Below are positions 24,701 to 50,950 of a stretch of DNA of 64,000 bases, piece after piece. Under the pieces are notes generated by a model, which saw nothing but the letters and a program-made list of their open reading frames with translations, had not been told where the DNA came from and made no database searches. Every line of letters starts with the position of its first letter. The stretch's first letter is position 1. Source of the stretch: Raillietiella orientalis (taxonomy: Eukaryota); NCBI GenBank assembly GCA_036172245.1, contig JAYWIR010000028.1, forward strand, positions 1,302,001 through 1,366,000. The letters are read 5' to 3'. A program made the position numbers and the translations under genes.

Positions 24701-24949
24701 AAAGCGGCGTGCCGTGACACTTGCACACCATCCCCCTCACGGAGAAGGCGACCCTGCGTTTCGCCAGAAAAAGGTGCGCTCGCGGAGCCGTCAGCATCCG
24801 ATGGATGACGCTGTCCCACCTCGCCGCCTTGCGCAAGTGTTCGTCGCCCGTCTTCCCACTTTCGCCACAGACGAGCGCGGAGCGGTTCCTTGCGGGACGT
24901 TCGTCCGCGCATTCGGCGCGCGTCTTTTCCTCTTCCCGTCGCTCCGTCA

Positions 24950-28629: not shown

Positions 28630-29500
28630 ATTGTCGTCGCACCCCGTGCCAGCGAACGCAGAAGCAGCGGTCCCTCCGCTTCCGTCCGCTGCCGTGTGGA
28701 GGCGCCTTCCGTCCGGGTACGTACCTGCATTTGCCACGTGTCCCCTCGTCCCGAAAGTAGCCAACCCTGGAGCTGAAGCTGCCTCGCGCAAAAGTGTGGC
28801 GCCCGGCGTCCATCGGACCGCTGACTCGCCCCCGGCAGGCGATCGCGCCCCGGGAGAACAAGGTGTATCTCAGGCCCGGACGATCACCTCGAGCACCAAC
28901 GTTCCTGCTAGGCAAACCTCACCTATCTGCGAAGAGCGGGATAGCTTCCTTCTCTTCGAGAGTACGGACACCTGCCCACCTTGGAAAGCAGCGTCGTTGA
29001 AACGAACGCGCAGAAGATGCCGGAATCAGCCGTCGGAAGGGAAGGAGATGGAGGGCGGCTGCGCAAGCTCCGAACCACCATTAGCGACTCGAAATAGGGG
29101 GGACCACTTTCTTCCCCTCCAACCCAGGTCCCCCGTCTAGACGAAGGACTAGCTCCCTGAACACGGTCTGCGCGTTACATCACCCGCTCCTAGGCGGTGG
29201 GAAACGTGGGTAGCGAACTTGGCAGACGAGAAAGGTGTCCCGAGGCACCGCGCGACGGCTCTGCCGCGACGAGCACCATCACGCGAGCGCAACTAAGAGC
29301 GCCTTTCTGCGGCGACGAAGAAACCACCGCAGCCCATCGGAGAACACCTCTTCGGAACAGGGACGCCATCTCCATCGTCATCCGCTCGTCTTCGTGACGG
29401 CGAGAGGACGCGGATATTCAGTCCGTGAGCCCTACCAAGGTGAAACCGGATCGGAACTTGAGCGGTGCGCCGTCCTCCCTCCTTCCACCTCCCAACTCGT
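28630..29500 (+). mobile_element. Further LINE RT fragment in the arm (mirror at about 53766-54636, minus strand)
   Basis: RLPSGYVP...PLVPK (28706, cf. SLxxGxVP..PxPK), VGSELG (cf. QGSxLG), FCGDE (cf. FADD) and SVSPTKVK (cf. LNPxKTK). Weak, manual. Confidence 0.4.
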
Positions 29501-30139
29501 GCCGAGATGGTTCGGCAAGGCGGGCGGTGACGCGAAGAAGCCCTGACTGTTTCCTCCCGCTCCCGCGCAAGTCGCCGTAGTCTCGTGTGAACCTTGGTCG
29601 TCGTCTATAGCGAGCGTTGCTCTACGAAAAAGCGCAGAGGTAGCCCTGAAGGGAAAGGATGGCGTTGCGGCTGCTGGCGTGCGGCGGCTCGGCCAGCGTC
29701 CAGACGACGGTCAGCGTACATCGCCGAAAGGACAGCCCGAGAAGTGAATCAGACGGAAACCGCCGCACCGGCTACGGTTTGGGCGGTGCATCACTCCCAC
29801 CTGGCAGGAGACTTTCCAGCTTCGCGCTCGAAAACGTTCGGGGAATCGGGAGAAGCCGCTGCCAGGCGACAGGGCAACGGCCCCTTCCGACCTGCTCGCC
29901 TGGCTGGCTGAGTGCTTGCAGCTGACGCGGAACCGGGAGCGTGCCAGGCTAGGGAAGCCACCGCCGGACACGTCCCCTATCTTCACGGTACGCGCGCGCG
30001 CTGTCCACCTCCCGCAGGGAGCAGAAAGCGCAAGCGCGGGAGGTACTCCCCGAGCTGGGCGACAGGGAACGGTGGGGCGAAGGAAGAAGCTTGCTCCGTT
30101 CTTTTCTGCTGCTGAACACGCCCAACCCGCGTGACCTTT

Positions 30140-30480
30140 AGCTGCTGGACTCCGCGGAGGGCGCGAGAAAATGCTCCTGAGGTCTCCCGTGCATGCACGC
30201 TGCGCTTGGGGCTACGCCGCCAGGCGTGGGAACTCCGTTTCCCAAGCGTCTCAACAAGAACGAGCAGTCGCGCAACTCTTGCTCGCTTCCCGGAACCCCA
30301 CCAAGAAGAAACGCATCCAAGCAACAAATCCGCACACTCCCAGAAGCGCCGCCTCCGCTGGACTTCGAGACGGTGGTCGCTGCCGCCACCGTCTCGAAGT
30401 GACGGATGTCGAGAGGCGTCGCGGATGCGCTCTGAAGGGAAGCGCAGGACGCAGGACCGACGAGCAGTGAAGAAACGGGA
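30140..30480 (-). mobile_element. Possible LINE RT N-terminal fragment (mirror at about 52786-53126, plus strand)
   Basis: VSKSSGGG...ICCLDAFLLGGVPGS resembles KAxGxDG...LFNxCLxxGxVP. Confidence 0.28.
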
Positions 30481-32316
30481 GCTTCGCAGACGGCGGAAAC
30501 CAAGCGTAGATTTTCGCCTGCAGACAGCCACCCTCCCGTGAAGCCCTGTGCTTTGCCTCTCGGGACGCCGCCGTGCAGCCGATTGCTCCTGGCCAAAGCC
30601 TCTGTGGCGAGCGGGACGCGCTGAGCCCTGCTTCGAGCGCGCCCCGCAGAAGCCGTGGGGCCTCCGTGTTCTCTCCGCTCCTCGGTTTCCCAGCAACGGG
30701 CGCGCGCGTTGCCTTTTCCGCAGGCGCCAATCCTCATCCCTCGTCCCAACCCGCAAGAGGAGCACGTCTTCCCGCTGACGTGCTCCCGAACCAGCCCCCG
30801 TTCTGCCCCATTCCTTTCCCCCGAGGTGCCCCAGGCAAACAGAAAGGGCAACCGCAATCCAGAAGGCTTCTCCGCATGACCGTGTGCATGCCGGACAGGA
30901 ACCGGTGGCGCGTGCGGGACAATCAAGAGTTGAGGCTCGCGACGGCCGCCTCCCGTTCCACCTGCAGCACGCGCCGCATCAGAAAGTCTCCCCATCGAAA
31001 CTGGGAACAACGTGGAGAGCGCGTGCTGCGTCACACGCGAGAGCTTCCCGCGGCCATGTGCCAAAGAATTGGAGAAGGTGCGTCGCGCCTGGCGCAGAAC
31101 CCGCTCGCATCCTTAGCGCCCAGAGACAACCGGAGGGGGGGGGGAAGAACCGAGCCAAGTGCCGCAGCACGCGCGTCTGACCGGTCTCCCGCCGAGGAAG
31201 CGGCCGCCAGGTAAAGGCCGGGACGCTCCGCGGGAGCGAAGAGGTATGCCTCGCCCCTGCGCACATCCTGCGGGTGCGATCTCATCAAGTGGAACGGAAA
31301 AGCAAGTCCGTCGCGTGCTGCCCGCTGCTCCCAGACGCCTTTTTGTTCCGCCTCACACGCAACGAAGGCAGCGCTCGACACCGTATCGCCCACAGAAGGC
31401 TCAGTGCGCTTCTTGTCCGGGGGCGGATGGGTGGATCCCAGGATGCACAGGAAGCCGTCCGAAGGCGACGTCCTCTCGTCCTGGGACGCCTTCGAAGAGT
31501 TTCATCCTACTCCTCCATCCTACTTTTCTCCTGCCTCGAGAGCGTGGTGTGCCGGCTGGGATGTTGCTCGACGCTCCTTCGCGTATCCGCTTGCGGACAG
31601 CGTTCGTCTGTGCATTCCCGCCAAAGGGACTTGCCGTGTCCCGATCCTATTCAGTGAAGGGACGAGTGTCCGCATCGGGGACGTAGCCAGCGGGCAGCGT
31701 ACGAGGATGAGGAAGGAAGCGTAAAAAGAGCTTCGACCCCACAACCCTCTTGCGGGAATCGCCGCGGCTGTCACCGGGTGACCTCCACGGTCTGTCCGAT
31801 AAGCGGAATTGCACGGGAGGAGCGCGCCGTCGGTTCTTGCGCGGCGTCTCTCGGAAGGCACGAGACTCGTCGTCCAGGCAACTCGTCTGCCTGCGACGCG
31901 TCTGCCTCCTTCCGCGGTTCCTCGCCTCGCAATTCAAAATCGCTACTTCCCCTCTCTCCCACGCGACCCCACCAGTGCTGTGGCACCGCGGAAGCCTCCT
32001 GTTCCTCCGAGAAGAGACCGCCGGCTGGCACCCATCCGACGGAACGTCGTCGTCGTCTGGTTTTCAGATCGCTTCCGAACCGTCGGCGGCTAAGGACGCG
32101 CCCCATCGGTCACGACAGGAGCAGCGACATCGTTCCCTGGGAACGCGTTTTCCTGCGCCGCGATCATCGAACGGCGGCGGTCGTGCGCAAGCGTTGCTCG
32201 CGCCTGCGTGCGCGAGAGGCGCAAAGCTGCGGTGACGGTGGGTGGAGATGCTGAAGCGGGCAAGGGCGGCAGCGAGCAAGCCGGCTCGAGTCGGGGCCGA
32301 GCTGCCGGCGCGGGAT

Positions 32317-35300
32317 GCCTCCGTCACGAAAGTTGCATCGGCATAGAAGAGCGCTCTTCCTTCCGATGGCGCTTCCCATCTCGTCAGCTGCCGACAGCCG
32401 AACCCGCGGGAAAGAAATCCGAGAAGCGACGGCGCGCATGAACCGAGGCGGAGGAGCGCGCCGCCACTGTGACCACGGACAGAAGCCCTCGGATGATTGG
32501 GTTTCGAGCAAGAGGATCGCACCGCACCAATCGCTGCACCGCAGCGCCTTCTCCATATCCTGCAGACCGAGCAATTCAAACACCGTCCCATGTCCAGCGA
32601 CCGCAGCAAGGGACATCCGCTCTCTCTGGTTGGGCCCGGCAACGCGCTGCCAACGACCCGATGACGGTAGATCGCTGCTGCGCCCTCGCTCGCACGAGGC
32701 GGCCCTTCCGTCATAACGCACCAGCATCGCCCCCGCAGCTGCCGTCACGTGGCTTCATCGGGCAGAATCCTTCAGTAGAAAGGACCGGGCGAGGAGGTGG
32801 CAGAGAGCCGGTGGACGACCGGCCACCACCTCGGCCTCCCGCGGCGCACGTTGAACGACTTGAACCTGTTCGGGAGCTCCTCTTCGAGATTGGGCGGCGG
32901 CGGATCTGCAAAGCCTGCCCTCTGCTGGCGCGCCTCCAGCGCTGCGTTCCCTTCTCCATCGATGAGATGCGCGCGCAGATGCACGCATTCGGTGCCGGGT
33001 ATTCGTGGCGCCTCTCGAGGCTGCGGGCGAGCGCTGGCGGCGGCATCCGTCCGTACCTGCCGCTGGAGTCCGCCGTCGGCAGCAAGCGGGAGATTGAAGT
33101 TTGGGGACGCGCGCCGCTGCCTCGCCTCCCTCTGGCATCTCTTTCGGTCGCCCTCGCAACTGCGCTTCTCAGTAGCGCATCCGACTAGCCTTTGCTTTCC
33201 GCGCAGCCGAACGCGGGAAAGTGGTGCTCGCCTCCGTCCGCGTTCTCCAGCTCTACGAGTAGGCGGTGCATCTCATCAGCCCATGGCGCCGTCGAGCGCG
33301 CCACCGGACAGGGAGAGCAATCGGTCGTCGCCTGTGCAAGAGGCGCGCTCCCCAAGCATCCCTGCGGCACGCCTTCCCCTTCGTGCGCTTCCACGACTGC
33401 CGACGGCCGCGGAAGCGGCTCAGCGTTGCCATCCGTCGGTTGGCAGGAGTTCCGCGACGTCGAGCTCCAGGACAACGCGTGTCGATCGCGCGCGCTGCGG
33501 TCGGAAGAAACTGTTAGAGCGCGGTCGCACGCACGGCGCGCTCCCGGTCCGTCAGCCTGCCGCCCGACGGGTGCGCTGCTGCCCGGCAGCCGGAAGTCGC
33601 CGCGGGGTAGCGGCTGCGCACTCCTCCCTCGCCCCGCGCCCGGCAGTCTTCGAAATCCGCGCGCCCGCCTCTCCGCAGCTTGAAGAGCGACGCTCTCGGC
33701 AGGGTTTGCTGGCAACAGGAAAGCGTCCCGGGAAAGCGCGCAGCGGCTTCCGAAGGTTGGCATCCCTGGACTCCATGGTAGTTGCACGGGGACGCCTTCG
33801 TCCGCGAAGGAGCTGCCGTTCAGCTGCGTCGTCCACCAGGCTTCCCTGCCCGGATGTTCGTTCCTCTTCCGCTGCGGCGCGGAACCGCTGGCACTGGTGA
33901 CCGGTCTCGCATGTACCAAGAAATTTTCCGCGCTTGCGCCGTCCCGTCTTCCACGGATCGTGAAAGGGATCGCCAACTGCTAGGCGACCGGTAAGCTCCT
34001 CGTGGCTCGCTCTTCCCGCAGTTGACCGCAAGAGAAAGGAGGGAGCAGGAGAGGGCGGTGGCGTCCGACCTGACGACGGCACGCACGCGCGATTCGCTCC
34101 TTTCGCCCGCCGCGCGCTCTGCTTCTCCGCTCCAAGTGGGCGCCGCTCGCTTGCAGACGCACGGGGCGTCCGCGGCTGTTGCGACCTCGCTTGAGCTCGG
34201 GCGCTGCCCTGCACGCCCACACGCTCGCCACCTTCTCGCCGTCGCCACGAGGGAGAGGCTTTTCCCTGTGCTCGTGAGCGCTTCGCGAGCTGCTCCTGGG
34301 ATCGAATGTCGCGCGAGCTGGAGGACACTTGTTCGGGGAAAGCCCAGGTGCTGTCCCCTGCAGCTGGAGCGGGCTTTCCCTAGCTGCGGCGCCACCGTCG
34401 GCGCTTTCCTGCACAGCAAAGGAAGGCAGATCGTCCGCACCGTTCCCGCCTGTGTCCGACTCGGGAACGGGGACGGATGCGGCGATCAATCGGCGCGCGC
34501 GCTTTTCCTGCCTGCCATCTTCGCTTGAATCGCGAGGGGTGGGGTGACGAAGCACCCTCCGCCAAGTGTCCAGGTCGGCCGCTTCCGAGCGGGGGCGGCC
34601 GGGGAGATGCGTGCAGCACGTTCGCGGCGATCCCTTGCTGCTGCCGGCAGCTCTTCTGCACCGACTCAGACGCCCTCCAAGCGCGCGCCCTGCCCGTCTT
34701 CCAGCCAGCTAGGCCGCTGTAGGCGACCCTCCAACCTGTAGGCGCGTCGCCGCCCCCGCCGGCCCGCGCTGCGCTTTCGTCCGGCGCTCCCGCGTGAGGT
34801 CGCTGCCCGTCCGCTTGCCCGCTCGTTCGGACGGACGAACGAGCGTCCTGGAAGCGCCGATTGCCGCAACCGTGTTCGCGTTCCAGAGATGCGTCCCACG
34901 TGTCTCGAGCTGCCCGTTCCCCGGTCCCGCGTGGTGATGCGTGCGCCTTCGTCTCCTTCGGACACGATCCTTCTTCCCAAAGGCTGCAGCGCTGTGAGTT
35001 ACGACGCTGGTGACTCGTGGTAGCGTAGGGAAGGGTGCGTAGACGATTGGCGCTGGAGTGCTCCCGGACGCCTCTGACGTGAGTAGGATGGCCAATCCTG
35101 TCCGGAAATCCAGGTCCTTCTCCCCGATGGTTTCTTCGCAGGCCGTGGAGAACGCGGGGTGGTACCGTGCTGCGGCGCGGGTGCCTGTCGGTGGCGCGCG
35201 CCCGCGCAGAACCGATTGCCGCCTTTCGACGTGCCGTCCGGGCGAAGAGCGGTGCTGGTAGACGGCAACCGGAGGTCGAGATCGGAAGTCGCCGGATCGG

Positions 35301-35767
35301 AGGGATGCGACCCGCGGCGGCGTGCGCTCGTGGCTTTCGGCTGGCGCAAGAAGCGCACGCCACGCTGCAGGTACGTCCTCTCAGGCGCTCAGTCGTGCAC
35401 AGTCCGCGGCGCTGCTCGCCGCCGTGCGATGTGGTCGATCCGGGAGTCCTACTCCGGGAGTGAAACTCGGTTGGAATCCAGGGTGCTCGGGTGCTGCGCT
35501 GGATGTCTCCCGAGGGAAGATTCGCTCCATCGCACGTGTCCCCGCCGTGTTGCCTTCTCGTCCTTGCGTGTTGAAAAGCACCCCCTCCCCTCGACGGAGT
35601 GACACTTGTTCCCCAATTTTCTTCTCTATCGTGGGTATTGCGGCGGCTTCCCGTGTTTTCCTCGAGCATCGGGCTCTTGCGATCTTTGCTGCTCGCACGG
35701 CCCGCGTGTTTTTCTCGGTGAGCTCCTCGTTCCGAGTCGGCTTGGTCGGAGCGGATGTTTCCTCCCT
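32317..35767 (-). mobile_element. Left-arm copy of the same CR1-like relic
   Basis: Mirror of 47500-50950. GVPQG at 33359-33373 and WADE at 33272-33283 (ORF 33185-33976). Confidence 0.7.
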
Positions 35768-36034
35768 GCATGATGGAAGGCCATGCTGCTTGGTGGCGTC
35801 GCTGGCATTTGCGGTGACGGACCTCATCGGAAAGGCTGCGCGTTTGCCGGCAGCAGCATCGCAGTGTGAGTGTTTTGGTTTCTCCCTGAACGACGGCATG
35901 CACTTTTCTGTATGCATGGTGTTGTCGCCGGGTGGAATTTTGTCCCGTGACGCACGTGCTCGGGCTGCATGGTCTCTGGGTGTCTGTCGATGTCTGAGCG
36001 AGTGCTCGAGGGGGGAAAACAGAGGTCCTGTTTG

Positions 36035-39000
36035 TCACACGAGAGCCTCCGAGAGCGTTTTCTGCGTCCCCTGTCGTGGGAGCGAGCTGCTGCTGGTACA
36101 GGACTCCTTCTTTCCCGGAGGTTGCACAGCTCCAGGGAAGATCATGCAGACGCAACGTTTACTCTTCGTGTTTGAGATGAGGCAGTCAGGAGACTTCCCG
36201 TTGGGTCGGAGGTGGTGCGGGACGGGATGCGCCTTCTTCGTCCAGGGGTCGGATGCCTTCGAATGAAAAAACACCGGGAAGCGTGAAACGTGTCCCGTTT
36301 TCCGTGAAGAAGAAGGTATTCCGGAAGAAGCCGGTGCAGACAGCAGGAAGATTCGTTCTTGTGTTGCGAGCCACGTGCTGCGAAAGTAGGCGATCCCGAT
36401 GTGCAGCGGTCCTGACTTCCCGTGTGCTGAGGGGGAGGAAGAAAAGAAAAGGAGCTTAGCGCTGTCGACGGCGGTTCTGCTACGCAAGGCATAACGAAAC
36501 GAACGCTTTCCAGTACGGGAAAAGGAACATCGATTGCAGACATATGGGGATGTGGATTCTGGAGAAAAGGAATGCAGCGGGAAGGAATGGGGAGAGCGAT
36601 GCGAACGAGTGGCTGTGGCCCCTTCGAAAGTGCACCTATCCGGGGCGCTTGGTCCTTCTCCCCTTCCGTTCCGTTCCGCTGAAAGGACCCGTCCGGGGTC
36701 GTCTTGTGCATCTGAGACGCGCCTGCTTCCGTACGAGCGGTGGAAGTGCAGCGGGACCACCCGCTGAAGCACGTGACCATTTCCGGAAGAGCTTTTCCCA
36801 CGTCGAATGTGGGGAAGAGAACTGCCTCTTCGCTGACCTGCAAAGGCCAGAGGGGTTGCTTCGTTGCTGTGGGAAGTGTACCTTAAGCGTAGGCTGATTC
36901 CTTCCAGTCGTTCCATGTTTCCCCAAAGAGTCGTACGCGTGCTCGAAGGGAGCGTTCGGAAGACCGTCCGTCTGCTAAACTTCGGATTCCGAGTGAAGGC
37001 GTTTGAGGTCTGAGGATATCGCTGATTTCGGTTCGCCTCTTCCGTCTCTTTGAAAGGCGAGGTCGTGACACCTGAGGTGATTTCGTATCCGTGATCTGTG
37101 CTGCTCTCCACAGCATCATATCCTGCAAGTATGTTGCTCCCGGCAGTGATCTCCAAGCTGCCGTGAAGAGTCTCTTTGACTTCTGTGCTCTGCCGTGGTT
37201 GCGTAGTCGCTCCAGATGCTTAGATACATAGTGAAAATAGAAAGAGAAGCAGAGTAGCAGGATGTCCGATCTTGAGAAAAGAGGAGCCTCTCTGCGGTTT
37301 TTACTGTTTGAAAATGGCGTATTTAGAATTTGAGGTTGTTGTGCATTAATGGTCGTGTACTGTGGTTGTTGATTTGCTGTGAGGAGGATCCGAGTTCGAG
37401 ACGTTTTTTGATTTTTGCTTTATCTAAGGTTTGTTTGTCTTTGTTTTTGGTTGCTGTATTTCCAGAAATAATGTTTGTGAAATGTGCTCAAATTTTAAAT
37501 CTTCCGCTGGCTGCTGCATTCCGTTTTCTCCTGTGCATCGAATTTTATTCGAAGCTCATGGAATGCTCTTTTTTCTTCTCATCATTCGCTTCTCTGGCTT
37601 TATATAAATGTGACTGGCAGAGTTCTTTTTTCTGGCAGAGTTCATTTGATTAACAGGAGTGCGGGATGCTGATTCTCTTCTTTATGAAGATGTGGGTTTG
37701 CCCTTATCATTTTTAACTCTCTCTCAGAGTTCATTTGTTTTGTGGTTCGCAGTTATGCACTCTTTGCTTGTTGGAACTGAGTGTTTATGTCTTTTGCGTC
37801 TGAGACTGCACCCCATGTTCCGCTGAATTTTTGTTCCATAAATGGATTATGAAAATGATGCTGTTTTTACGATGCATCTTGGACCGAAGAATGCAAGTGC
37901 GCTCGATTCCTGCAGTCGAAACGAAGGCTGACATTTGTCATTGAGATTTCTACTGTAAGTGAAGAAGAGTAGTTCGCGACGGCATTGAGGGCAGATTTCA
38001 TCATAAGAAGTTGATGGATGCGAATTGAGACGCTTGTTGGAGGTGTGGACGTTTTGCTCCCGCTTTCGTGGTTCGCTTCTTCAACCACCAAAGGTCATGT
38101 TGGCCACGTTCCTGTTTTGCTAGCGTGCTAACAAAATTCCTTGCTGTTTCCTGTGATTCACATGATCACAGCTCATCATCCTCGGAGACTGGTGCTGCAC
38201 CTTTTTACAAGTCTCACGAATAAATAGTCTGCTTATGGCGCAGAAAGAGGATTCTCTTTCTGCGCTTGAGGAATGGTGGAGCATATCTGGAATTATTATC
38301 GGGGAAATCGCAAGTGGATGTCGAGCGTTTCCAAACGTGGCCTGCGAAGAGCGAAAGCCTTTGTTTTGGAAGACATTGGCGAGCGGTGGGGTCTTCACCG
38401 GCAGATCGAGACCCCACAGGTTACAGAACATCCACTGAAATAAAGGAAACTGTTCTCTAAATCTAATAGGAAGTCTTTGGGCTTCTTCCGTGTACAAATA
38501 AGAAGTTTGGACCTGGCACAATAACTGAGAAGTTCAAATTATAGGTTCTATCTTAAAAATAGAGGGAAGAACATCTGTCTATACTCGTTGGGTCTCTATG
38601 GAAACAATGAAAATTCTCCAAGTGGATAAGTGAATCCATATTTAGAAATCACCGCGACTCATTTGAAATCCCTGTTCATTTAAAGAGAGACCCGAAGAAC
38701 CCTATAGGCTCCTTACATGATTTCCTTTCGTGAAGTGTGCGGATGGAACGATCCCAATTAGTGAAATGTTCATCTAAATGATGCAGTTCCTTCCAGTTGG
38801 GTTCACGAGAAATGACTTCATGGACCCAGAATATAAAGTTTTTTGTAGTCGGTTTTCTTGAGCGTTCGTTTTACGTGGTTTTGCAATTCAAGTCCTCCTC
38901 TCCAGATCTGAGTTTTCAACCTTGTTTTTATCCTTTGCATAACTGTCGGATGCTGCGTATCGGATGTCGATTTCAGCACCCTTCGGCATGAGGCTTCAGA

Positions 39001-39647
39001 GCAACCAGCAGCCGCCAATTCACAAGAAGACGAACAGCTCTTGCAGGCCGTCGTTGGAATGGAGCCTTCTTGGGTCTTCTTCGCTTTGCATTGCGTTCTC
39101 AAAATGAATGGCAGATGAGTTTCTGATGACGAAGGCAGAATGGACGCATCCCTGAATGCGTGCAGGAAGCAGCAACTTGCAACAGCCATCCCTGTCCCAT
39201 CATCGGAAAATTGCGAAATTGTGATTCTTCGAAGGACACCCACAACTTCACACGATGAAGGTGAAAATTCGTTTCCAGAGAACCTCAAAAGCTATAAGGA
39301 AAAAGTAAGGAGGAGCAGAGCAGCATCGTCTGGTCTCGCGATCACGGAATCCCTTCTTTCCTCTTCTGCAAACTTCTGCAAGACGTTCCCTCGTTCTGGA
39401 TGCTTGATGAAGATCTTCAAACCTCACAATCAAAGGATTGTGAGGTTTGAAGATCGGTCAACGCTGCCGCGAACTTCATGCCGTTTTTCTCAGCACGAGT
39501 TTTCTCCAATGGCACACCTCCAGTAAAGTCGATTGAGATGCAGCATCCATTAGAAAGTGAGGATTTGTTCAGTTGCTGCCTAGTGCAGATTACTGCATCG
39601 TCGTGATGAACATCATCCATGCAGCAGTTGCATGTGATTTTGGCCAT
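36035..39647 (-). mobile_element. Decayed CR1/L2-like LINE (PHD-like ORF1 start, APE, tether, RT) crossing from the spacer into the left arm
   Basis: Minus-strand motifs occur in canonical order: MAKITCNCCMDDVHHDDAVICT (PHD-like, from 39647); DSLIHLENFHCFHRD (APE-like, about 38590-38640); tether WGAVSDAKDIN (37783-37815) and LYKAREAND. Inside the arm follow RT-like YPQxxxxxxxxPKF, LPSSTR (cf. DPSNYR), AGQRRGSS (cf. FGFRxGxS), VVPLHFHRSYGS (cf. VFLDFSKAFDS) and TAVD (cf. YADD, 36464-36475). Manual alignment. Confidence 0.62.
39412..39455. repeat. Perfect 20-bp inverted repeat with a 4-nt loop
   Basis: gatcttcaaacctcacaatc-aaag-gattgtgaggtttgaagatc. Confidence 0.95.
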
Positions 39648-42199
39648 GAACTTCTTCTCTTAGAAAGACCCATTCTCATCCGTGGGTAGCTGGATCAGGA
39701 TCATTCATCGTAAAGTTCTTCTCGCAGTGAGTATGATTTTGCGTGTATTTTCTGACATTACCTTTTAGATAAGGCCTCAGAATCCTAAATGTTTCGCCAC
39801 ACGGAGGATTCGATGCAGCTTTCGGTTTTGAGTGAATTCGAATGCGAAAAAAAAACTCTGTTGCGAACGAGTGGTTCCGAATAAATGCCCTCGAACACTT
39901 CCTCACCTTCATTCCTCTGGAGGCTTCCTTCTGAGAAGCTGGAAGGGGGAACTGTGAGATGAGATTTCGGATGAGGAAGTGCATTATTTCATCTCCTCTG
40001 ATTTCCTAATTTTCCCTAACAGTTCTTATAAGACGGTAGCTGCAGGCTATAAAAACGACAAATCTCACGCCACTAGAAGATTGCAGGGGTTGCAGCTGAG
40101 ATCAAAAACAGAGATTGCAGTGTCTCCACAAATAAGCATTTCTTACTAACATCCACGCCATAATGAAATAAAAAGGCATTTTTCTTCGCCTATTTTCTGA
40201 AAAAAAAATTTTTTTTTTTTTTTTAAAAAATACGTATTTGGATGCTTTTTCCCATAAAAACTCATATGTTCCAACGAATTCCATTTAATTTACTTTCATC
40301 AATTATCGTTGTGATGAAATCCAATCTTCGAATTCTCAATTATGACTATTTTGCAGATTCCCAACGGATCGGAGTATCGAACTCAATCCATTCCTATGTC
40401 TGCAAAGGGGAAAAATCGAATTCCAGAATGCGATTGAAGTTCTGATTTCGATATCCATCTAATTGAACGGCCACGCACTGTCATCCCCACACATTTATAG
40501 AGCAGGAAAGCCCTCGATCCATAGTGCAGGGCGTTTACAAGAGTTAATTAGCATGTGTCTGCTCATTTTCATACCATTTCATTGGGAGGAGCACTTAAAT
40601 TCGGCCGTGCCGTCCCAGAATGAGGAACGTGACATGAGTAAGACGGGAAATTCCGTTCCATGAATGAGTGCAATAAGAGTATGGCAGCATTACTGTGTTC
40701 ACTACTACTATGATGAGATGCTTTTTTCTCTCCCCTCAGGGAGGAACTGCGAGATCAGCCATACGCAATCTCGTTCGGATGAACGTTTGCTACTCTTTGT
40801 CAGGCCAGAAGAGTGCTCCGGAAGAGGAAAAAGCAGTCAACGCCGGAACCTCCATTACCGAGCTTTATTAGATTCAAGGATGAACGGCCGCTGTTCAAGA
40901 TGGATTGAATGATTTTAGCCTCCACTCTCCACAAACAATATGTGCTAGATCAAGTTGTAGAGGCTTGTGGACAATAAGAGGACGGAGAGATGAGTCGGAT
41001 TCAGATGAGAGTCAGGTTACAGAGAGGGATTTTTTTTTTTTTTAATGAGAACGTTTCGGAGAAAGGAAATCTGAGGAACTGACGTGTGCTGTCAGTAAAT
41101 AATGGTTTTACTAAGCGAGTTTTAGAGTTGGAGTTCTGACCCTAAATAAGGGGGGTGAGGGGTGGGGGGCATTTTCCAATTTTGGGGCTGACTTCTCGGA
41201 ATCTCGCACGGTCTGTTGGAGTCTCATTAGATTCTGCTCATTCGATTCCGAAATCCTCCTTATGCTGGCATCTCAGAACACTTATGAGAAGAGAATGCTG
41301 AAAGGATGGAATTGAATAGCTTCCATAAAATTTGCACTGCTCATCACTGACTCCTCAAGAAAGGTCGGGAAAGATCGAAGGTCACCTTGAAACGGCTTTA
41401 AAATTCAAAGCCTTAGGTGACACATCGAGTTCGTAAAATGGTACGTCTTTCGTATGCTTTCTCTCTTGGGTTTTTCACCCGGAAGTGCCGGGGCACTTAT
41501 TATTTAAATTCTAACAGAATAAAATTTTCTAATAAAGTCTTTAGGTTCATTCAGGCAGACCACGTGGTTCCGCCTGTCTGGGAACACTTGTCTTTACCGG
41601 CCCTGAGGCCGGTGAGGTTCTCTTCGCTAGCGAAGGGGAAGGGAAAACAGCAGAAAAAAAAAAAAAAAAAAAAAACCACGAAAAAGATATCTCTCTTAGG
41701 TATCCGTCAGTTACAGGTTTGAAGTCTAAAAAGACTGAAGATAAAAATGCGATCATACCGTTATGCGCTGTGCATCTCAGAATGCTCATGATGTAAGAAA
41801 GATTGTTCGTGGTCATCGGAATTTTTCTGACCATGATTCAGAAAGCTCGAGCTGAAGAGGAGAGCAAGGAACGTGGCAAGGAACGAAACACACACATCCT
41901 TTAGGACTTTCTAATGAAGCTCATCATCTGTCATGAGGAAAAGGCATAAGTTGATTGTGCGAAAGAGAAGCGACCTATTCAACAATTTTAAATATCTGCA
42001 TTTTGATAGATGTAAGGGAATGAGCTCTTAAAATAACAAAAGAAACAAAAAGACATCTATCGATAACCTACAATCATTCAATTTCTTTTTTGCTGGTCGG
42101 CGAATGGTTTTCAACTCGGATACACAACAGCAGAAGTCACGAGTAGGAGTAGAACTCTACCTTGGGTAGTATAGGTCCCGTGGCAGTCCAGTGGCTATG

Positions 42200-43720
42200 C
42201 CACAGGACCATCAGAACCACCAAATGCCATTGAATGCTCGGGATGCAGAAAGTATGTTTCTCGAGTTCCTTCTTGGGCGATGTTCCTTCTGATTTTCCCG
42301 TTGAAATTCAAGGCGCCAATGAAGGCACTACAAACATCTGAAGGATGGTCCTCCTTAATGATGCTTGGATCGAAGCTGATTCCTTCAAACATCAATTCTG
42401 GATACTTGTGCACGTAAATGTTCCCTACTCTTACAGCATCCTGTTTATGCACCAGTGCGAATGTCTGGGTTCTGGGTGCAAATTAAGAAACAAAGATTCA
42501 TACCAGGAACCGTTTTACATTGGGAAGTGCCGCTCGTGGTTCGCTGCCAACCCAAATAGGATGGATCTCCTGATAGGGCAAAAGCATTTGTCTGGAAACG
42601 AGGAAGCATACTTGTGTTTTAGAGCTGTCAAATTCCAAAAGGGTCCAATGGCACCAGGCGATATCTCTTTGTTTTGATTTCAAGGCATCCGGGCAAATCG
42701 AGAGGAACAGTTCAGCGTTTTGGGGTATTCCTGCTCTGAAATCGAAAGTCCACACTAATCGTCTCTTCCATCAAAGCAAGACCTAAATTCCTGAGGTACT
42801 CCTTCTATCTGGATATTCTCGCCTGTGACGTGCGCATGTTAACGTAAATGACCATCTAAATCCTATCCACAATAGTGCATTTAATGACCGCTGTACTCCT
42901 AGGATGCTCGTTGGAAATTCTAAAATCAACCGTACATGTTCTTCCAGTATATTCCGTTGGTTTATCGATGGACTGCATCGGCTCCATCTCCTCGCGAGAT
43001 CAGTATGAAACTTTCTTTCTCTCTCGTGCTCGGTTTGCCTCGGATGCTCGGTTTGTGCTGCAGAGGAGCTTGCAGATAGTTTGTGTGAACGCCTGTGATG
43101 CAGAAAAGTCAGAAGTTATCCATCAGGAAAACAGAGTGCAAAGATTCTGTGAGCAGGGAAACTAATTCTCCTCTTTGAAATGGAGCACCACATCGTTGTC
43201 TTCCGGAATTGAAACTTTTCTCTCGTGGGGAAATTTCTTTCCCTCCTATTCGCTGTATATCCTTTCATATAGTCTGAATCGACTCCCTGCCCTATTGCCC
43301 CATTTCTCACTTGCATGTGTTTCGATTCCTACGCTTTATATGAACACCTAACCCTATTATAACACTCTGCCCTTCTACTTCCTTTCATAACGCCTTTATC
43401 TTCCATAAATTCGATGCGAATTCTCGGTTTGCTTCTGTTTTCTCTTTTTCTGTTTCTTCTTCTTTTTTTCCTTCGAATCTTCCCTTCCTCACAGCATCAG
43501 TGCAAAGAAAAAATGGAAGGGCTGATTGTCATTTTCTTGAATTCCTATTCAATACCGAGATCATCCCAAGTAAGGCATCTCATCGCAGAACCAGAGCTGA
43601 CGAAGATGCCATTTTTATTATTTCACATCAACAGATCAATGGGCATACCGAAGGAATGCCATTTATATGTTGTCAAGGTGCATGCATTCTCCCCCACCTT
43701 CTCTCTTCTACATCACACGA
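42200..43720 (-). mobile_element. Decayed AT-rich CR1/L2-like ORF2 relic in the spacer (internally deleted and frameshifted)
   Basis: Minus strand: PIDLLM (APE end-like), ERNFPTREK, VDFRIS, YVNMRTSQARI, GVPQ (42791-42802), IAWCHWTLLEFDSSKTQVCFL (cf. WxxxWxLxFNxSKTQ) and IYVHKYPELMFEGISFDP. Confidence 0.55.
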
Positions 43721-44279
43721 AGGAGGCTTTTTGCACCGAGTCAGCGAGAAAGACGGTCAGTCTCTCAGTAACAGCATACAAATCTACGCGTGGTGAACGG
43801 GTCACTCCGGAGAGAATGAGGAAGGAGAGATTCCCTTCGGGGTTCCCCTTCGGAGACAACCAGGGTGGGAGGTGCGATCCCCCCCATCCGGGGGGGATCC
43901 CTCTCCAAGCGTGAGAGGAACGTACTCCGAGCCCTTCCTGACCCTTCATAGGGCGGACCCCATCCCGGGGTGCCCCCTATCTTGAAGAATTAGACGCCCT
44001 CCTGCGGGTTGCCGCAGGCAGAGAGGCGTGGAAACAAAACGGTGTGTTTAAAAGAGCCACGAGCACCACGAGGCACGCGACCGGTTCTGAGGTACTCAGC
44101 CAACCAAAAAAAGAAAACTCTTAAAAAAAAAAAAAAAAAAAGCTGGAACGAAAACAGCAAAGACAGAAGAAAAAGAACCCAAGGATTTCCATCGTCGAAA
44201 ATACAGCACTCTGCATGGAGGAAATGTTTCAGTATTCACCATCTAAAAGTGCACTGTCCTTAATGTCTTCGAATGTTCG

Positions 44280-47232
44280 AGATGATCCGGTTGAGCGAGA
44301 CCTCATCCACTCCATATAAGTTGCATGTTATCTCTCTGGAGGTCTTCAAGACGAGGCATCAAATCAAGAGGAGAATGAAAGGAGTGAAAATGAGTGACGA
44401 GAGAATGAGCTGGTTTAGGTCAGCATCTGCTGTTGAGGAAGAATGAGGAAAAACGGAGAGAGAAGGAGGCATACAAAAAACTTCCTTTATCTTTAAGTTT
44501 GCTATCAGAGCTGCGACAGACCCACAGGAATATTACTCCTTCGCCAAGAACCAGAAGGCTCCGAAGGAGAACTATTTTTCTCTGTCAAATCAGAAAGCCG
44601 AAGCTGAGGCCACGAGTAGAGGGTGGCTGGCCGCTAACGAGTCCCTCAAACGATTCCAAGGGAACAGGGGACAAATGGAGTTTTTTGAAAGCATAGGCCG
44701 ATGCCGACGATGCTCTAAAATTGATGATTGCATAAAATGGATTCATAAAGTGACATCTAAATGTTAGAGAGCAAGGGAAATCTCCCCTCTGCTATGCCTG
44801 TGATCATCTTTAATACGGTCAGGATAGTTGCCTGCGAAGATTGCCTCTTAAATTGAAGGTTTTATTGCATGCAAACTGTTAAAGCTCTGGACGTCATTCA
44901 GGATCTGTCGGGAGTTTCATAAACATGCTTCAGTACAGTATTTAAGAAACCAGTCGAAGTAGGCCAGAGACAACCGAGGAAGAGGGATGGTAAGAGTGCA
45001 TTCCCGGAAATCACAATGCAATTGAAAGCTTTGACAAAAGAACATCTCGGTGGAAGTGCACGCTTTGAAGTCGGAACACTTTTGACGATCCTATGCACAC
45101 AAGTGTGGAATATGCCTCAAAGAGAGGCAAAGAAAGAGACTGCAAGATAATAGACGCACGCTTATGAAGTTTGGACCACAGAGAAGGAGATTCATAATTG
45201 AATGAGGCAGCCACCCAGAAAATAGCATCTTGGAGAAGAAAGAGGCATACAATAAAAAGAAATTTGGAAGGACAACGATTCTAAGCTTACACTCAGGAGT
45301 TGCGTTGAGCTTCACCACGTGAGCCTCGGTAGTCGATAGCCTTGATCCCCGTTGCCATAAACGACAAGCGGAATCTTCTGACTTCTGCCGCTTCAGTCGC
45401 CACAATAAAGTGTACTTTCTTTCCGAATAAACAAAATTATCTTAGTGCACTCCTAAACACACGTACGTGACGCACATGCCCTCATGGGTGCATCCATATT
45501 CCGCGAGCAGCACGGGTCGGTCATTCGCCGCGCCTTCTGCTGGATTGCAATGCACTTCTTCCGGGATTGGGTACGCCTGTCTTCAGCGTCTCCGCATCAC
45601 CGTGACGATCCAAGAAGCTTGTCAAGAAGATTCTTTCTCCAGAAAGAGATGCCCGTCACCACAATCGTATCCATTTTGTGGCATGTCAGCAAGCTAAGAT
45701 AAGCTGAAGGCAGCGAAAGGATAAGAACAGCAAAATAGTATAACCAGTGAAACTGCTGTCCCAGAATCCTCCTTACGAGCATAGGAATGGCTTCATCTAC
45801 CGTACGAAGAGAAAAGAGAAATCTCCTGTACCTGACGCAAACTCTCCAGTAACTGATGGGAGAGGAAGCGATCCTAGTCAGCTCCACAATTACTCATATT
45901 CTAATTACTTCTTCCCCCCCTTTTATCCCTGTAGCCTTCTCCCATACACGCGTGAATGCGACGAAAGAGAGGTATCTCTTGCAATGGACTCCGTTGAAGT
46001 CAAGCATCCTGCTGCTCTGCTTCTCTTTCTATTTTCACTATGTATCTAAGCATCTAGCGACTACGCAACCACGGCAGAGCACAGAAGTCAAAGAGACTCT
46101 TCACGGCAGCTTGGAGATCACTGCCGGGAGCAACATACTTGCAGGATATGATGCTGTGGAGAGCAGCACAGATCACGGATACGAAATCACCTCAGGTGTC
46201 ACGACCTCGCCTTTCAAAGAGACGGAAGAGGCGAACCGAAATCAGCGATATCCTCAGACCTCAAACGCCTTCACTCGGAATCCGAAGTTTAGCAGACGGA
46301 CGGTCTTCCGAACGCTCCCTTCGAGCACGCGTACGACTCTTTGGGGAAACATGGAACGACTGGAAGGAATCAGCCTACGCTTAAGGTACACTTCCCACAG
46401 CAACGAAGCAACCCCTCTGGCCTTTGCAGGTCAGCGAAGAGGCAGTTCTCTTCCCCACATTCGACGTGGGAAAAGCTCTTCCGGAAATGGTCACGTGCTT
46501 CAGCGGGTGGTCCCGCTGCACTTCCACCGCTCGTACGGAAGCAGGCGCGTCTCAGATGCACAAGACGACCCCGGACGGGTCCTTTCAGCGGAACGGAACG
46601 GAAGGGGAGAAGGACCAAGCGCCCCGGATAGGTGCACTTTCGAAGGGGCCACAGCCACTCGTTCGCATCGCTCTCCCCATTCCTTCCCGCTGCATTCCTT
46701 TTCTCCAGAATCCACATCCCCATATGTCTGCAATCGATGTTCCTTTTCCCGTACTGGAAAGCGTTCGTTTCGTTATGCCTTGCGTAGCAGAACCGCCGTC
46801 GACAGCGCTAAGCTCCTTTTCTTTTCTTCCTCCCCCTCAGCACACGGGAAGTCAGGACCGCTGCACATCGGGATCGCCTACTTTCGCAGCACGTGGCTCG
46901 CAACACAAGAACGAATCTTCCTGCTGTCTGCACCGGCTTCTTCCGGAATACCTTCTTCTTCACGGAAAACGGGACACGTTTCACGCTTCCCGGTGTTTTT
47001 TCATTCGAAGGCATCCGACCCCTGGACGAAGAAGGCGCATCCCGTCCCGCACCACCTCCGACCCAACGGGAAGTCTCCTGACTGCCTCATCTCAAACACG
47101 AAGAGTAAACGTTGCGTCTGCATGATCTTCCCTGGAGCTGTGCAACCTCCGGGAAAGAAGGAGTCCTGTACCAGCAGCAGCTCGCTCCCACGACAGGGGA
47201 CGCAGAAAACGCTCTCGGAGGCTCTCGTGTGA
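44280..47232 (+). mobile_element. Decayed CR1/L2-like LINE, mirror counterpart, crossing from the spacer into the right arm
   Basis: APE-like DLSGVS*TCFS (44902-44934, cf. DIIGVSETWF), FTT*ASVVDSLD (45311-45346, cf. PTR..LD) and FSRHNKVYF (45392, cf. SDH). Tether IRTAK*Y (45721-45741) and DPSQLHNYSYSNYF. These lead into the same RT relic as the left arm (ORF 45856-47232; YPQ at 46249, TAVD at 46792-46803). Confidence 0.65.
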
Positions 47233-47499
47233 CAAACAGGACCTCTGTTTTCCCCCCTCGAGCACTCGCTCAGACATCGACAGACACCCAGAGACCATGC
47301 AGCCCGAGCACGTGCGTCACGGGACAAAATTCCACCCGGCGACAACACCATGCATACAGAAAAGTGCATGCCGTCGTTCAGGGAGAAACCAAAACACTCA
47401 CACTGCGATGCTGCTGCCGGCAAACGCGCAGCCTTTCCGATGAGGTCCGTCACCGCAAATGCCAGCGACGCCACCAAGCAGCATGGCCTTCCATCATGC

Positions 47500-50400
47500 A
47501 GGGAGGAAACATCCGCTCCGACCAAGCCGACTCGGAACGAGGAGCTCACCGAGAAAAACACGCGGGCCGTGCGAGCAGCAAAGATCGCAAGAGCCCGATG
47601 CTCGAGGAAAACACGGGAAGCCGCCGCAATACCCACGATAGAGAAGAAAATTGGGGAACAAGTGTCACTCCGTCGAGGGGAGGGGGTGCTTTTCAACACG
47701 CAAGGACGAGAAGGCAACACGGCGGGGACACGTGCGATGGAGCGAATCTTCCCTCGGGAGACATCCAGCGCAGCACCCGAGCACCCTGGATTCCAACCGA
47801 GTTTCACTCCCGGAGTAGGACTCCCGGATCGACCACATCGCACGGCGGCGAGCAGCGCCGCGGACTGTGCACGACTGAGCGCCTGAGAGGACGTACCTGC
47901 AGCGTGGCGTGCGCTTCTTGCGCCAGCCGAAAGCCACGAGCGCACGCCGCCGCGGGTCGCATCCCTCCGATCCGGCGACTTCCGATCTCGACCTCCGGTT
48001 GCCGTCTACCAGCACCGCTCTTCGCCCGGACGGCACGTCGAAAGGCGGCAATCGGTTCTGCGCGGGCGCGCGCCACCGACAGGCACCCGCGCCGCAGCAC
48101 GGTACCACCCCGCGTTCTCCACGGCCTGCGAAGAAACCATCGGGGAGAAGGACCTGGATTTCCGGACAGGATTGGCCATCCTACTCACGTCAGAGGCGTC
48201 CGGGAGCACTCCAGCGCCAATCGTCTACGCACCCTTCCCTACGCTACCACGAGTCACCAGCGTCGTAACTCACAGCGCTGCAGCCTTTGGGAAGAAGGAT
48301 CGTGTCCGAAGGAGACGAAGGCGCACGCATCACCACGCGGGACCGGGGAACGGGCAGCTCGAGACACGTGGGACGCATCTCTGGAACGCGAACACGGTTG
48401 CGGCAATCGGCGCTTCCAGGACGCTCGTTCGTCCGTCCGAACGAGCGGGCAAGCGGACGGGCAGCGACCTCACGCGGGAGCGCCGGACGAAAGCGCAGCG
48501 CGGGCCGGCGGGGGCGGCGACGCGCCTACAGGTTGGAGGGTCGCCTACAGCGGCCTAGCTGGCTGGAAGACGGGCAGGGCGCGCGCTTGGAGGGCGTCTG
48601 AGTCGGTGCAGAAGAGCTGCCGGCAGCAGCAAGGGATCGCCGCGAACGTGCTGCACGCATCTCCCCGGCCGCCCCCGCTCGGAAGCGGCCGACCTGGACA
48701 CTTGGCGGAGGGTGCTTCGTCACCCCACCCCTCGCGATTCAAGCGAAGATGGCAGGCAGGAAAAGCGCGCGCGCCGATTGATCGCCGCATCCGTCCCCGT
48801 TCCCGAGTCGGACACAGGCGGGAACGGTGCGGACGATCTGCCTTCCTTTGCTGTGCAGGAAAGCGCCGACGGTGGCGCCGCAGCTAGGGAAAGCCCGCTC
48901 CAGCTGCAGGGGACAGCACCTGGGCTTTCCCCGAACAAGTGTCCTCCAGCTCGCGCGACATTCGATCCCAGGAGCAGCTCGCGAAGCGCTCACGAGCACA
49001 GGGAAAAGCCTCTCCCTCGTGGCGACGGCGAGAAGGTGGCGAGCGTGTGGGCGTGCAGGGCAGCGCCCGAGCTCAAGCGAGGTCGCAACAGCCGCGGACG
49101 CCCCGTGCGTCTGCAAGCGAGCGGCGCCCACTTGGAGCGGAGAAGCAGAGCGCGCGGCGGGCGAAAGGAGCGAATCGCGCGTGCGTGCCGTCGTCAGGTC
49201 GGACGCCACCGCCCTCTCCTGCTCCCTCCTTTCTCTTGCGGTCAACTGCGGGAAGAGCGAGCCACGAGGAGCTTACCGGTCGCCTAGCAGTTGGCGATCC
49301 CTTTCACGATCCGTGGAAGACGGGACGGCGCAAGCGCGGAAAATTTCTTGGTACATGCGAGACCGGTCACCAGTGCCAGCGGTTCCGCGCCGCAGCGGAA
49401 GAGGAACGAACATCCGGGCAGGGAAGCCTGGTGGACGACGCAGCTGAACGGCAGCTCCTTCGCGGACGAAGGCGTCCCCGTGCAACTACCATGGAGTCCA
49501 GGGATGCCAACCTTCGGAAGCCGCTGCGCGCTTTCCCGGGACGCTTTCCTGTTGCCAGCAAACCCTGCCGAGAGCGTCGCTCTTCAAGCTGCGGAGAGGC
49601 GGGCGCGCGGATTTCGAAGACTGCCGGGCGCGGGGCGAGGGAGGAGTGCGCAGCCGCTACCCCGCGGCGACTTCCGGCTGCCGGGCAGCAGCGCACCCGT
49701 CGGGCGGCAGGCTGACGGACAGGGAGCGCGCCGTGCGTGCGACCGCGCTCTAACAGTTTCTTCCGACCGCAGCGCGCGCGATCGACACGCGTTGTCCTGG
49801 AGCTCGACGTCGCGGAACTCCTGCCAACCGACGGATGGCAACGCTGAGCCGCTTCCGCGGCCGTCGGCAGTCGTGGAAGCGCACGAAGGGGAAGGCGTGC
49901 CGCAGGGATGCTTGGGGAGCGCGCCTCTTGCACAGGCGACGACCGATTGCTCTCCCTGTCCGGTGGCGCGCTCGACGGCGCCATGGGCTGATGAGATGCA
50001 CCGCCTACTCGTAGAGCTGGAGAACGCGGACGGAGGCGAGCACCACTTTCCCGCGTTCGGCTGCGCGGAAAGCAAAGGCTAGTCGGATGCGCTACTGAGA
50101 AGCGCAGTTGCGAGGGCGACCGAAAGAGATGCCAGAGGGAGGCGAGGCAGCGGCGCGCGTCCCCAAACTTCAATCTCCCGCTTGCTGCCGACGGCGGACT
50201 CCAGCGGCAGGTACGGACGGATGCCGCCGCCAGCGCTCGCCCGCAGCCTCGAGAGGCGCCACGAATACCCGGCACCGAATGCGTGCATCTGCGCGCGCAT
50301 CTCATCGATGGAGAAGGGAACGCAGCGCTGGAGGCGCGCCAGCAGAGGGCAGGCTTTGCAGATCCGCCGCCGCCCAATCTCGAAGAGGAGCTCCCGAACA

Positions 50401-50950
50401 GGTTCAAGTCGTTCAACGTGCGCCGCGGGAGGCCGAGGTGGTGGCCGGTCGTCCACCGGCTCTCTGCCACCTCCTCGCCCGGTCCTTTCTACTGAAGGAT
50501 TCTGCCCGATGAAGCCACGTGACGGCAGCTGCGGGGGCGATGCTGGTGCGTTATGACGGAAGGGCCGCCTCGTGCGAGCGAGGGCGCAGCAGCGATCTAC
50601 CGTCATCGGGTCGTTGGCAGCGCGTTGCCGGGCCCAACCAGAGAGAGCGGATGTCCCTTGCTGCGGTCGCTGGACATGGGACGGTGTTTGAATTGCTCGG
50701 TCTGCAGGATATGGAGAAGGCGCTGCGGTGCAGCGATTGGTGCGGTGCGATCCTCTTGCTCGAAACCCAATCATCCGAGGGCTTCTGTCCGTGGTCACAG
50801 TGGCGGCGCGCTCCTCCGCCTCGGTTCATGCGCGCCGTCGCTTCTCGGATTTCTTTCCCGCGGGTTCGGCTGTCGGCAGCTGACGAGATGGGAAGCGCCA
50901 TCGGAAGGAAGAGCGCTCTTCTATGCCGATGCAACTTTCGTGACGGAGGC
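47500..50950 (+). mobile_element. GC-shifted, nearly complete CR1-like LINE relic (ORF1 end plus ORF2 APE-RT-C-terminus), right-arm copy
   Basis: One frame from 47350 to 50556 with only isolated stops. Motifs in order: NEELT (47536, cf. ORF1 NEDLT), LLAPAESH (cf. IIAITESW), IVYAP, DTWRRVL, LIAASVP, VPxxxxxxxxxPTF, SVALQAAER, GDFR, exact GVPQG (49894-49908), WADE (49984-49995, cf. F/YADD), RRPISKRSS (cf. VRPILEYxS). After a frameshift come DLPSS and RISFPRV (50846, cf. SFFPR). Confidence 0.7.

What the first reader, a model, noticed from the sequence alone, without database searches (positions are those of the whole stretch)
36035..47232. A LINE straddles the arm/spacer boundary symmetrically on both sides: an internal clock for the palindrome
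Seen: the LINE RT relic at the inner end of each arm is preceded in the spacer by its expected upstream domains on both sides. On the left (minus strand) these are PHD-like 39647, APE about 38600 and tether 37800. On the right (plus strand) they are APE 44902, PTR/SDH-like 45311-45418 and tether IRTAK*Y 45721. The two spacer parts barely align at DNA level, whereas the RT parts are almost identical. Inference: either the arms once reached at least 2 kb further inward and the innermost part escaped conversion long ago, which makes the palindrome old and actively homogenised, or two inverted LINE copies seeded the duplication by ectopic recombination. Either way, a simple fold-back assembly artefact would not predict this symmetry.
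Basis: partly seen in the sequence, partly recalled or inferred. Interest (0 to 1): 0.8.

Follow-up and report, generated by a model that had tools for sequence, protein, structure and literature searches.

The report
Self-repairing DNA palindrome, no LINE clock
The proposed retrotransposon straddling both arms was not found, but the stretch is a real 19-kb mirror-image duplication, one of many in this animal genome whose two copies seem to be kept alike by copying from each other.

Summary
The palindrome is in the assembly: arms 18237-37264 and 46005-65074, 99.49% identical, spacer 8,740 bp. The LINE was not found. Pfam, the genome's own LINEs, two L1 profiles, a 1.84-billion-protein search and the ESM Atlas show no RT, APE or PHD. 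The spacer halves do not align. A relic decayed by 30% or more would be missed.

A better clock lies in the arms. Differences are clustered (p=1.5e-4). Sampling the genome with random motifs gave 7 more inverted repeats with both ends resolved (arms 0.5-18 kb, spacers 2-49 kb). Their ends are frayed: 56 differences in the last 50 bp of 16 arm ends, against about 3 per kb inside. Six of these ends were a held-out test.

Best reading: long-lived inverted duplications kept alike by arm-to-arm gene conversion, roughly 400-2,400 of them in this genome. The mechanism is known from Drosophila and primates. The number and the lack of recognisable genes in the arms are the unusual part. No reads could be checked.

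The parts
18237..37264 (+). Left palindrome arm, 19,028 bp, GC 0.645; two-copy DNA; no Pfam family in the ORFs scanned
   Evidence: uniqueness; Pfam (116 ORFs of 110 aa or more; only 3 weak hits under the curated cut-offs)
46005..64000 (-). Right arm (continues to 65074, G000:C28:1367074), 99.49% identical; 42 substitutions and 5 indel events against the left arm
37265..46004 (.). Spacer, 8,740 bp, GC 0.44; the halves do not align; no LINE domain detected
37205..37264 (.). Frayed inner end of the left arm: 2-bp indel at 37212 and substitution at 37255 (partner 46005-46062), right after 3.65 kb of perfect identity
   Evidence: window-only null P(both ends have 2 or more events)=0.007
18237..18296 (.). 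Frayed outer end: substitution at 18248 and 4-bp indel at about 18290; weak similarity for about 35 bp beyond (p about 0.03, single test)
21272..23333 (.). Patch with 18 of the 42 arm substitutions (about 0.9%); read as the least recently converted block
33547..37211 (.). Longest perfectly identical block (about 3.65 kb); others are 18975-21271 and 23334-25757; read as recent conversion tracts
   Evidence: three largest gaps not reached in 20,000 uniform simulations
55164..55211 (.). 48-bp segment present in the right arm only (left position 28103)
45853..47232 (+). 459-aa open frame taken for an RT relic (mirror 36035-37219, -); no detectable homology; probably a chance frame in GC-rich DNA
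43801..44196 (+). Fragment of a high-copy dispersed repeat with an internal poly-A (83-89% to copies, about 2,200 candidates); truncated at both ends relative to 6 copies inspected; no LINE ORF match
41460..41680 (+). Short poly-A-tailed dispersed repeat (SINE-like; 78-85% to copies, about 300 candidates)

Best explanation
A real inverted duplication of 19 kb of single-copy DNA with no recognisable gene, in an animal genome, kept near-identical by arm-to-arm gene conversion. SHOWN: the structure, two-copy arms, clustered differences, frayed ends here and in 7 other inverted repeats. INFERRED (1) Birth: a break-and-rejoin or template-switch event left X on both sides of the spacer, probably as the by-product of an inversion (A-X-S-B to A-X-S'-X'-B). 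No repeat is needed at the junctions. (2) Upkeep: a break in one arm is repaired off the other arm 9-47 kb away, in tracts of kilobases, giving identical blocks of 2.3-3.7 kb between unconverted patches. (3) Tracts seldom reach the last ~50 bp of homology, so mutations pile up there. The ends record the age of the duplication and the core only the time since the last conversion. (4) Weakest step: conversion favours G/C, which would explain arm GC 0.645 against spacer 0.44.
For: 42 substitutions but only 5 indel events, one of 48 bp, which is not the profile of one molecule read twice. Clustering: dispersion p=1.5e-4. First 10 arm ends (window, C1, C8a, C6, C4): 22 differences in the terminal 50 bp (44/kb) against 4, 2, 1.2 and 3.4/kb further in; 150 simulated young duplications give 0.32 per end, P=3e-5. 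Held-out test after that prediction (C48, C8b, C51): 34 differences in 6 ends against 7 in 3.9 kb of core. The frayed zone is shorter than any read, so polishing does not explain it (inference). Chance homeology of that size in a 50-kb neighbourhood has an expectation of 4e-7 to 0.06 for the four sizes computed. Arms of the window, C8a and C8b have exactly two copies. Raised divergence at block edges is the published signature of conversion (PMC2588116, passages).
Against: No reads or second individual. The window's own fraying is mild: 4 events in 2 x 60 bp, P=0.027; the strong signal comes from the short-armed repeats. Internal patchiness could be heterozygosity if the two arms came from different haplotypes. 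Transversions dominate (27 of 42). Direct tests of GC bias were null: third-copy polarity 34:28, 2:2, 2:2. The other repeats were found with GC-rich motifs, so their GC is ascertained. 0 of 187 AT-rich hits against 17 of 332 GC-rich hits gives only p=0.025-0.064 per locus. If the ancestral flanks were outer-left and inner-right, the GC contrast has p of about 0.03-0.04. The C20 pair has 17 differences spread over 653 bp, with ends unresolved.
Confidence: 0.66

Rival explanations
1. Young duplication never converted. The 0.25% difference is age or allelic heterozygosity, patches are haplotype mosaics, and frayed ends were made at birth by joining at imperfect short homology or by error-prone synthesis near the junctions.
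For: The window's ends are only mildly frayed. Homology stops sharply beyond the edges, with no gradient. Inverted duplications of unique DNA arise at inversion breakpoints in flies, 17 of 29 (PMC1885836, passages). Several junctions of the other repeats abut dispersed repeats.
Against: 15 of 16 arm ends carry at least one difference in the last 50 bp, up to 9, in arms that are two-copy where tested. Chance homeology of that size is improbable. One end of a direct duplicate showed a single indel, as in the null.
Confidence: 0.22
2. Assembly or amplification artefact (fold-back read, chimera, haplotype misjoin).
For: No reads could be laid. Inverted repeats are frequent in this assembly. Misassembly is a recognised source of false palindromes (PMC7953838, passages). 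C2 and C20 begin with the same 20 kb.
Against: The contig is 2.97 Mb with unique DNA on both sides. The spacer is 8.7 kb. Arms differ by substitutions and a 48-bp indel. Four distinct junctions are needed, which a heterozygous inversion alone does not give (inference). An artefact predicts clean ends, not frayed ones.
Confidence: 0.07
3. One reading: a very old LINE lies across both inner junctions, showing kilobase erosion of the arms or seeding by two inverted LINEs.
For: IRTAK*Y and a Cys-rich peptide are present. The outward-reading strand is A-rich on both sides (left +0.29, reached by 1.8% of windows; right +0.13, 26%). Relics decayed by 30% or more escape the profile.
Against: All profile, BLAST, phmmer and Atlas tests were negative with working positive controls. 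The motifs are at chance level or absent. The LINEs recovered from this genome are L1/Tx1-like or R2-like; no CR1/L2-like element, the kind these motifs recall, came up.
Confidence: 0.04

Closest known systems
Gene-conversion-maintained duplicated blocks of Drosophila (Osada and Innan 2008, PMC2588116; passages read)
   Same: High identity in the middle and raised paralogous divergence at the edges, explained by inefficient conversion near the ends.
   Different: Their two illustrated blocks hold genes (Amy, Bob). Here the arms scanned show no host gene family, all cases studied are inverted, lie 2-49 kb apart, and the frayed zone is only about 40-50 bp.
Primate X and Y palindromes (PMC8981503, PMC3723533; passages read)
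   Same: Arms over 99% identical around a unique spacer, multi-kb conversion tracts (mean minimum 2,068 bp in P6), arms richer in GC than flanks (46 vs 41%). P6 is also gene-free.
   Different: Invertebrate-type genome; no evidence that C28 is a sex chromosome; GC contrast far larger (64.5 vs 44-56%); GC bias not shown directly; probably hundreds or more rather than about ten.
Inverted duplications at inversion breakpoints, staggered-break model (Ranz et al. 2007, PMC1885836; passages read)
   Same: Inverted copies of non-repetitive DNA flanking an ordinary segment. In the C1 repeat an L1 relic seems split between the inner-left and outer-right junctions, as this model predicts (weak).
   Different: The term 'gene conversion' does not occur in that paper's main text. 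No outgroup here to show that the spacer is inverted.
Palindromes of parthenogenetic animals, Folsomia candida and Adineta vaga (PMC7953838; passages read)
   Same: Several palindromes per invertebrate assembly, proposed to allow conversion.
   Different: Those were found by gene collinearity (15-16 and 19 per genome), which would miss gene-free arms like these. The reproductive mode of this animal is unknown.

Membership tests
APE-type non-LTR retrotransposon (LINE) relic | RVT_1 domain in the inner arm | tested here: not met
   detection limit about 20% decay
APE-type non-LTR retrotransposon (LINE) relic | APE endonuclease upstream of the RT on both sides | tested here: not met
   No PF03372 or PF14529 in six frames; L1 HMM -4.0 and -2.9 bits
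APE-type non-LTR retrotransposon (LINE) relic | Related copies elsewhere in the genome | tested here: not met
   DNA searches searches found no copy outside this locus; protein search of one frame, best other E=0.01
APE-type non-LTR retrotransposon (LINE) relic | Match to a CR1/L2/Jockey-specific library | not testable with these tools
   No such library or seed element was obtained
Conversion-maintained palindrome | Long inverted arms over 99% identical around a unique spacer | tested here: met
Conversion-maintained palindrome | Patchy identity and raised divergence at arm ends | tested here: met
   (mild for the window alone)
Conversion-maintained palindrome | Orthologous palindrome in a related species with concerted changes | not testable with these tools
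   G000 has no relatives in the collection
Conversion-maintained palindrome | GC-biased replacement in the arms | tested here: inconclusive
   GC plateau and taper; polarity null; motif sampling p=0.025-0.064
Conversion-maintained palindrome | Read support for both inner junctions | not testable with these tools
   No run could be laid on the stretch
Foldback or giant transposon with long terminal inverted repeats | Multi-copy arms, tandem subrepeats, transposase inside | tested here: not met
   Two copies only; no arrays; no transposase; arms not shared among the repeats compared; the C4 spacer holds an ordinary armadillo-repeat gene
Staggered-break inversion duplication | Spacer inverted relative to the ancestor, two new junctions | tested here: inconclusive
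   No marker at the window's junctions; split L1 relic suggestive at C1 only

The most novel reading that the evidence does not exclude
This animal carries several hundred to a few thousand gene-free inverted repeats (0.5-19 kb arms, up to 49 kb apart), about 4-5% of its GC-rich motif sites. Efficient intrachromosomal GC-biased conversion keeps them alive for millions of generations. They then build local GC peaks and make the 2-50 kb between the arms, host genes included, into segments that can flip. The 40-50 bp frayed zone would be an in-vivo ruler of the homology that conversion needs and a clock for each repeat.
Probability: 0.3. Interest if true: 0.75.

Novelty: new variant of a known kind. 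Interest (0 to 1): 0.5.

Why it matters
The LINE clock is gone, but a testable clock replaces it. Edge-versus-core divergence separates old converted palindromes from young duplications and artefacts using one assembly. If the count holds, gene-collinearity surveys have missed a large class of gene-free palindromes in an invertebrate genome. Hundreds of replicates would allow tract length, end effect, distance dependence and GC bias of ectopic conversion to be measured outside mammalian sex chromosomes.

Tried and rejected
LINE searches, all negative. Sequencing runs: none was listed, so no depth or junction test; this is no evidence either way.

My own hunches of spliced genes in the spacer (42198-42770 and 38821-39291, minus strand) got no support from Pfam, PDB, own-genome, Atlas or homolog searches (one search used a wrong frame). 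I treat them as unproven.

Kilobase erosion of arms: no homology in the spacer halves or outer flanks or beyond 14 ends. Giant transposon: rejected. GC-bias polarity: null. A LINE straddling the C1 junction: first suspected, dropped because the arm holds an R2-like relic and the spacer an L1 piece.

Rfam and tRNA scan: nothing. Pfam on 93 flank ORFs: nothing. One search was not scored. One search lacked its self-hit and is not used. One search returned nothing (threshold too strict), so the host is placed only as an animal by HSP90; 'invertebrate, arthropod-like' is my recalled impression.

Literature searches returned 0 papers, and one search listed none on such repeats. This is weak evidence of absence, as the library holds only open-licence papers. 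No supplements were read.
Full report
Setting. The window is G000:C28:1302001-1366000, in a 210-Mb, 491-contig eukaryote. Its HSP90 scores best against animal proteins. The genome has many intact L1/Tx1-like and some R2-like elements. GC per 3 kb over 304 kb around the window ranges from 0.29 to 0.64 outside the palindrome and is 0.61-0.68 in bins inside the arms.

The palindrome. Self-BLAST gives one long inverted match: 18237-37264 against 46005-65074, 99.486%, spacer 8,740 bp. The arms differ by 42 substitutions (15 transitions, 27 transversions) and 5 indel events, one of 48 bp. They have only these two copies in the genome (these searches skip very common words). They hold no tandem arrays of note, no Rfam or tRNA hit, and no Pfam family over its cut-off in 116 ORFs of 110 aa or more. 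Short exons could be missed.

The LINE claim. Pfam on six frames of 35900-47400 found no RT, endonuclease or PHD, with genuine LINE ORFs as positive controls in the same call. tblastn with the genome's LINE ORFs gave only composition-driven hits. Two profiles scored below zero; the broader one found a decayed LINE 90 kb away at E 8e-9. A profile without this genome's elements detected their ORFs after 10-20% random decay but not after 30%, and gave -4.0 and -2.9 bits for the two claimed relics. phmmer over 1.84 billion proteins gave 1 marginal hit, and the Atlas none. IRTAK*Y is present, but its pattern occurs in 11% of shuffles, and PTR/SDH are absent; that these motifs recall CR1/L2 elements is from memory. 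The spacer halves share nothing. The spacer does hold two short dispersed repeats. What may have suggested a LINE is an A-rich outward strand on both sides.

Signs of homogenisation in the arms. Differences are clustered (dispersion 2.8, p=1.5e-4). 18 substitutions fall in 21272-23333, while blocks of 2.3, 2.4 and 3.65 kb are identical. Both ends carry two events within 60 bp (P=0.027 for four events, 0.007 for two at each end). GC is 0.645 in the arms and tapers at both ends, against 0.44 in the spacer and 0.56 and 0.52 in the flanks.

The window is one of many. Four GC-rich motifs gave 336 listed sites (one search lists 100 of 175; the 4 sites in this palindrome were dropped). Of 23 close opposite-strand pairs checked, 9 were 97% or more identical over 500 bp or more, 1 was a third copy of one of these, 5 were short 78-96% repeats, and 8 did not match. 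Both ends were resolved for 7 of the 9, given as arm/spacer: C1 18.1/2.2 kb, C8a 2.5/22 kb, C8b 2.4/38 kb, C6 2.3/8.1 kb, C48 1.3/22 kb, C4 1.1/49 kb, C51 0.5/13 kb. C20 and C28 remain unresolved. Four AT-rich motifs gave 187 sites, 6 candidate pairs and no match. Weighting by arm length gives about 1,200 such repeats, or 365-2,400 for a twofold error in motif density and with or without the smallest; this rests on 7 loci and is rough. The arms of C8a and C8b are two-copy. C1 is rich in transposon relics, and C6 and C48 contain repeat pieces; C4 and C51 were not tested genome-wide. 100 of 150 candidate ORFs in or next to these arms were scanned, and only a zinc-finger hit in the R2-like relic appeared.

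Frayed ends. In the first five repeats, window included, the last 50 bp of 10 ends held 22 differences (44/kb) against 1-4/kb further in. Simulated young duplications give 0.32 per end (P=3e-5). I then fetched C48 and C8b and examined C51 as a held-out test: 34 differences in 6 ends, 7 in 3.9 kb of core. A pair of independent 378-bp repeat copies showed evenly spread differences, and one end of a direct duplicate a single indel. Beyond the frayed zone homology stops (P=0.25), so there is no sign of gradual kilobase erosion.

Mechanism. Old ends and young cores are what conversion predicts, as tracts need homology on both sides and seldom reach the last tens of bases. Osada and Innan report the same pattern in Drosophila blocks (PMC2588116, passages). 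Kilobase tracts and GC-rich arms are described for primate palindromes (PMC3723533, PMC8981503, passages). For the origin, staggered-break inversions make inverted copies of unique DNA (PMC1885836, passages). At C1 an old repeat spans the outer-left junction, and L1 pieces lie in order and on one strand across the join of inner-left and outer-right (E about 1e-5 each), which fits but is weak. The window has no such marker. Template switching with later widening of the spacer is an alternative origin (PMC10766186, passages).

Results against. GC-bias polarity was null. The GC enrichment of the other repeats is ascertained. The window's fraying is mild, its patches could be heterozygosity, the C20 pair shows spread differences, and no reads were available. 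Published counts in parthenogens are 0-19 per genome by gene collinearity, with a warning about misassembly (PMC7953838, passages). A preprint on bird immunoglobulin loci (10.64898/2026.09.05.749481, passages) concerns one gene locus and did not bear on the edges.

Verdict. LINE observation not confirmed; palindrome confirmed; old and converted, 0.66. The mechanism is known. The apparent abundance of gene-free, widely spaced inverted repeats with sharp 40-50 bp frayed ends was not found in searches. New variant of a known kind, interest 0.5.

Noticed in passing
G000:C1:10897729-10936075 (L163-L167): Second large palindrome: 18.06-kb arms, 99.4%, 2.2-kb spacer. R2-like relic inside both arms; 33 of 64 substitutions in 2 kb; L1 relic apparently split between the inner-left and outer-right junctions.
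   Followed up: partly
G000:C2:1-20000 and G000:C20:1-20000 (L113, L114, L126, L127): The two contigs start with the same 20 kb (99.98-100%), which contains short inverted repeats of 91-94%. Shared chromosome-end block or assembly branch.
   Followed up: no
G000 contigs C71, C114, C53, C76, C139, C189 and starts of C1, C28, C48, C53, C79, C275, C354: Intact L1/Tx1-like elements occur in same-strand arrays about 5.5 kb apart, often at contig ends or on small contigs; possibly telomeric or site-specific arrays.
   Followed up: no
G000:C28:22224, 47590, 59610 (L182, L145, L146): Three copies in alternating orientation, 97.5-99.4% identical; ends not resolved.
   Followed up: partly
L159, L161, L169 (inner junctions of C8a and C6): Dispersed repeats begin or end within about 10-25 bp of several arm ends, as if insertions bound the converted region.
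   Followed up: no
window 37265-38264 (-) and 44205-46004 (+): The outward-reading strand is A-rich on both sides of the spacer, continuing the skew of the inner 3 kb of the arms; unusual only on the left. Unexplained.
   Followed up: partly
window arm differences: 19 of 42 substitutions are A/C or G/T transversions, unlike C1, where transitions are about half.
   Followed up: no
window 42198-42770 (-) and 38821-39291 (-): Two adjacent open frames separated by an in-frame 39-bp GT-AG stretch, and a 157-aa frame after a pyrimidine-rich AG. Possible small genes; no homolog found.
   Followed up: yes
L152:9425 to L153:1365 (C4 spacer): Armadillo-repeat gene in one long frame (647 aa stop to stop) inside the 49-kb spacer of an inverted repeat.
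   Followed up: no
G000:C10:3233944 and 3257962 (L128, L129): Direct duplicate 24 kb apart, 99.9%; the one end seen is not frayed.
   Followed up: partly
window 11026-11129 and 11241-11344: 104-bp direct repeat, 80% identical.
   Followed up: no
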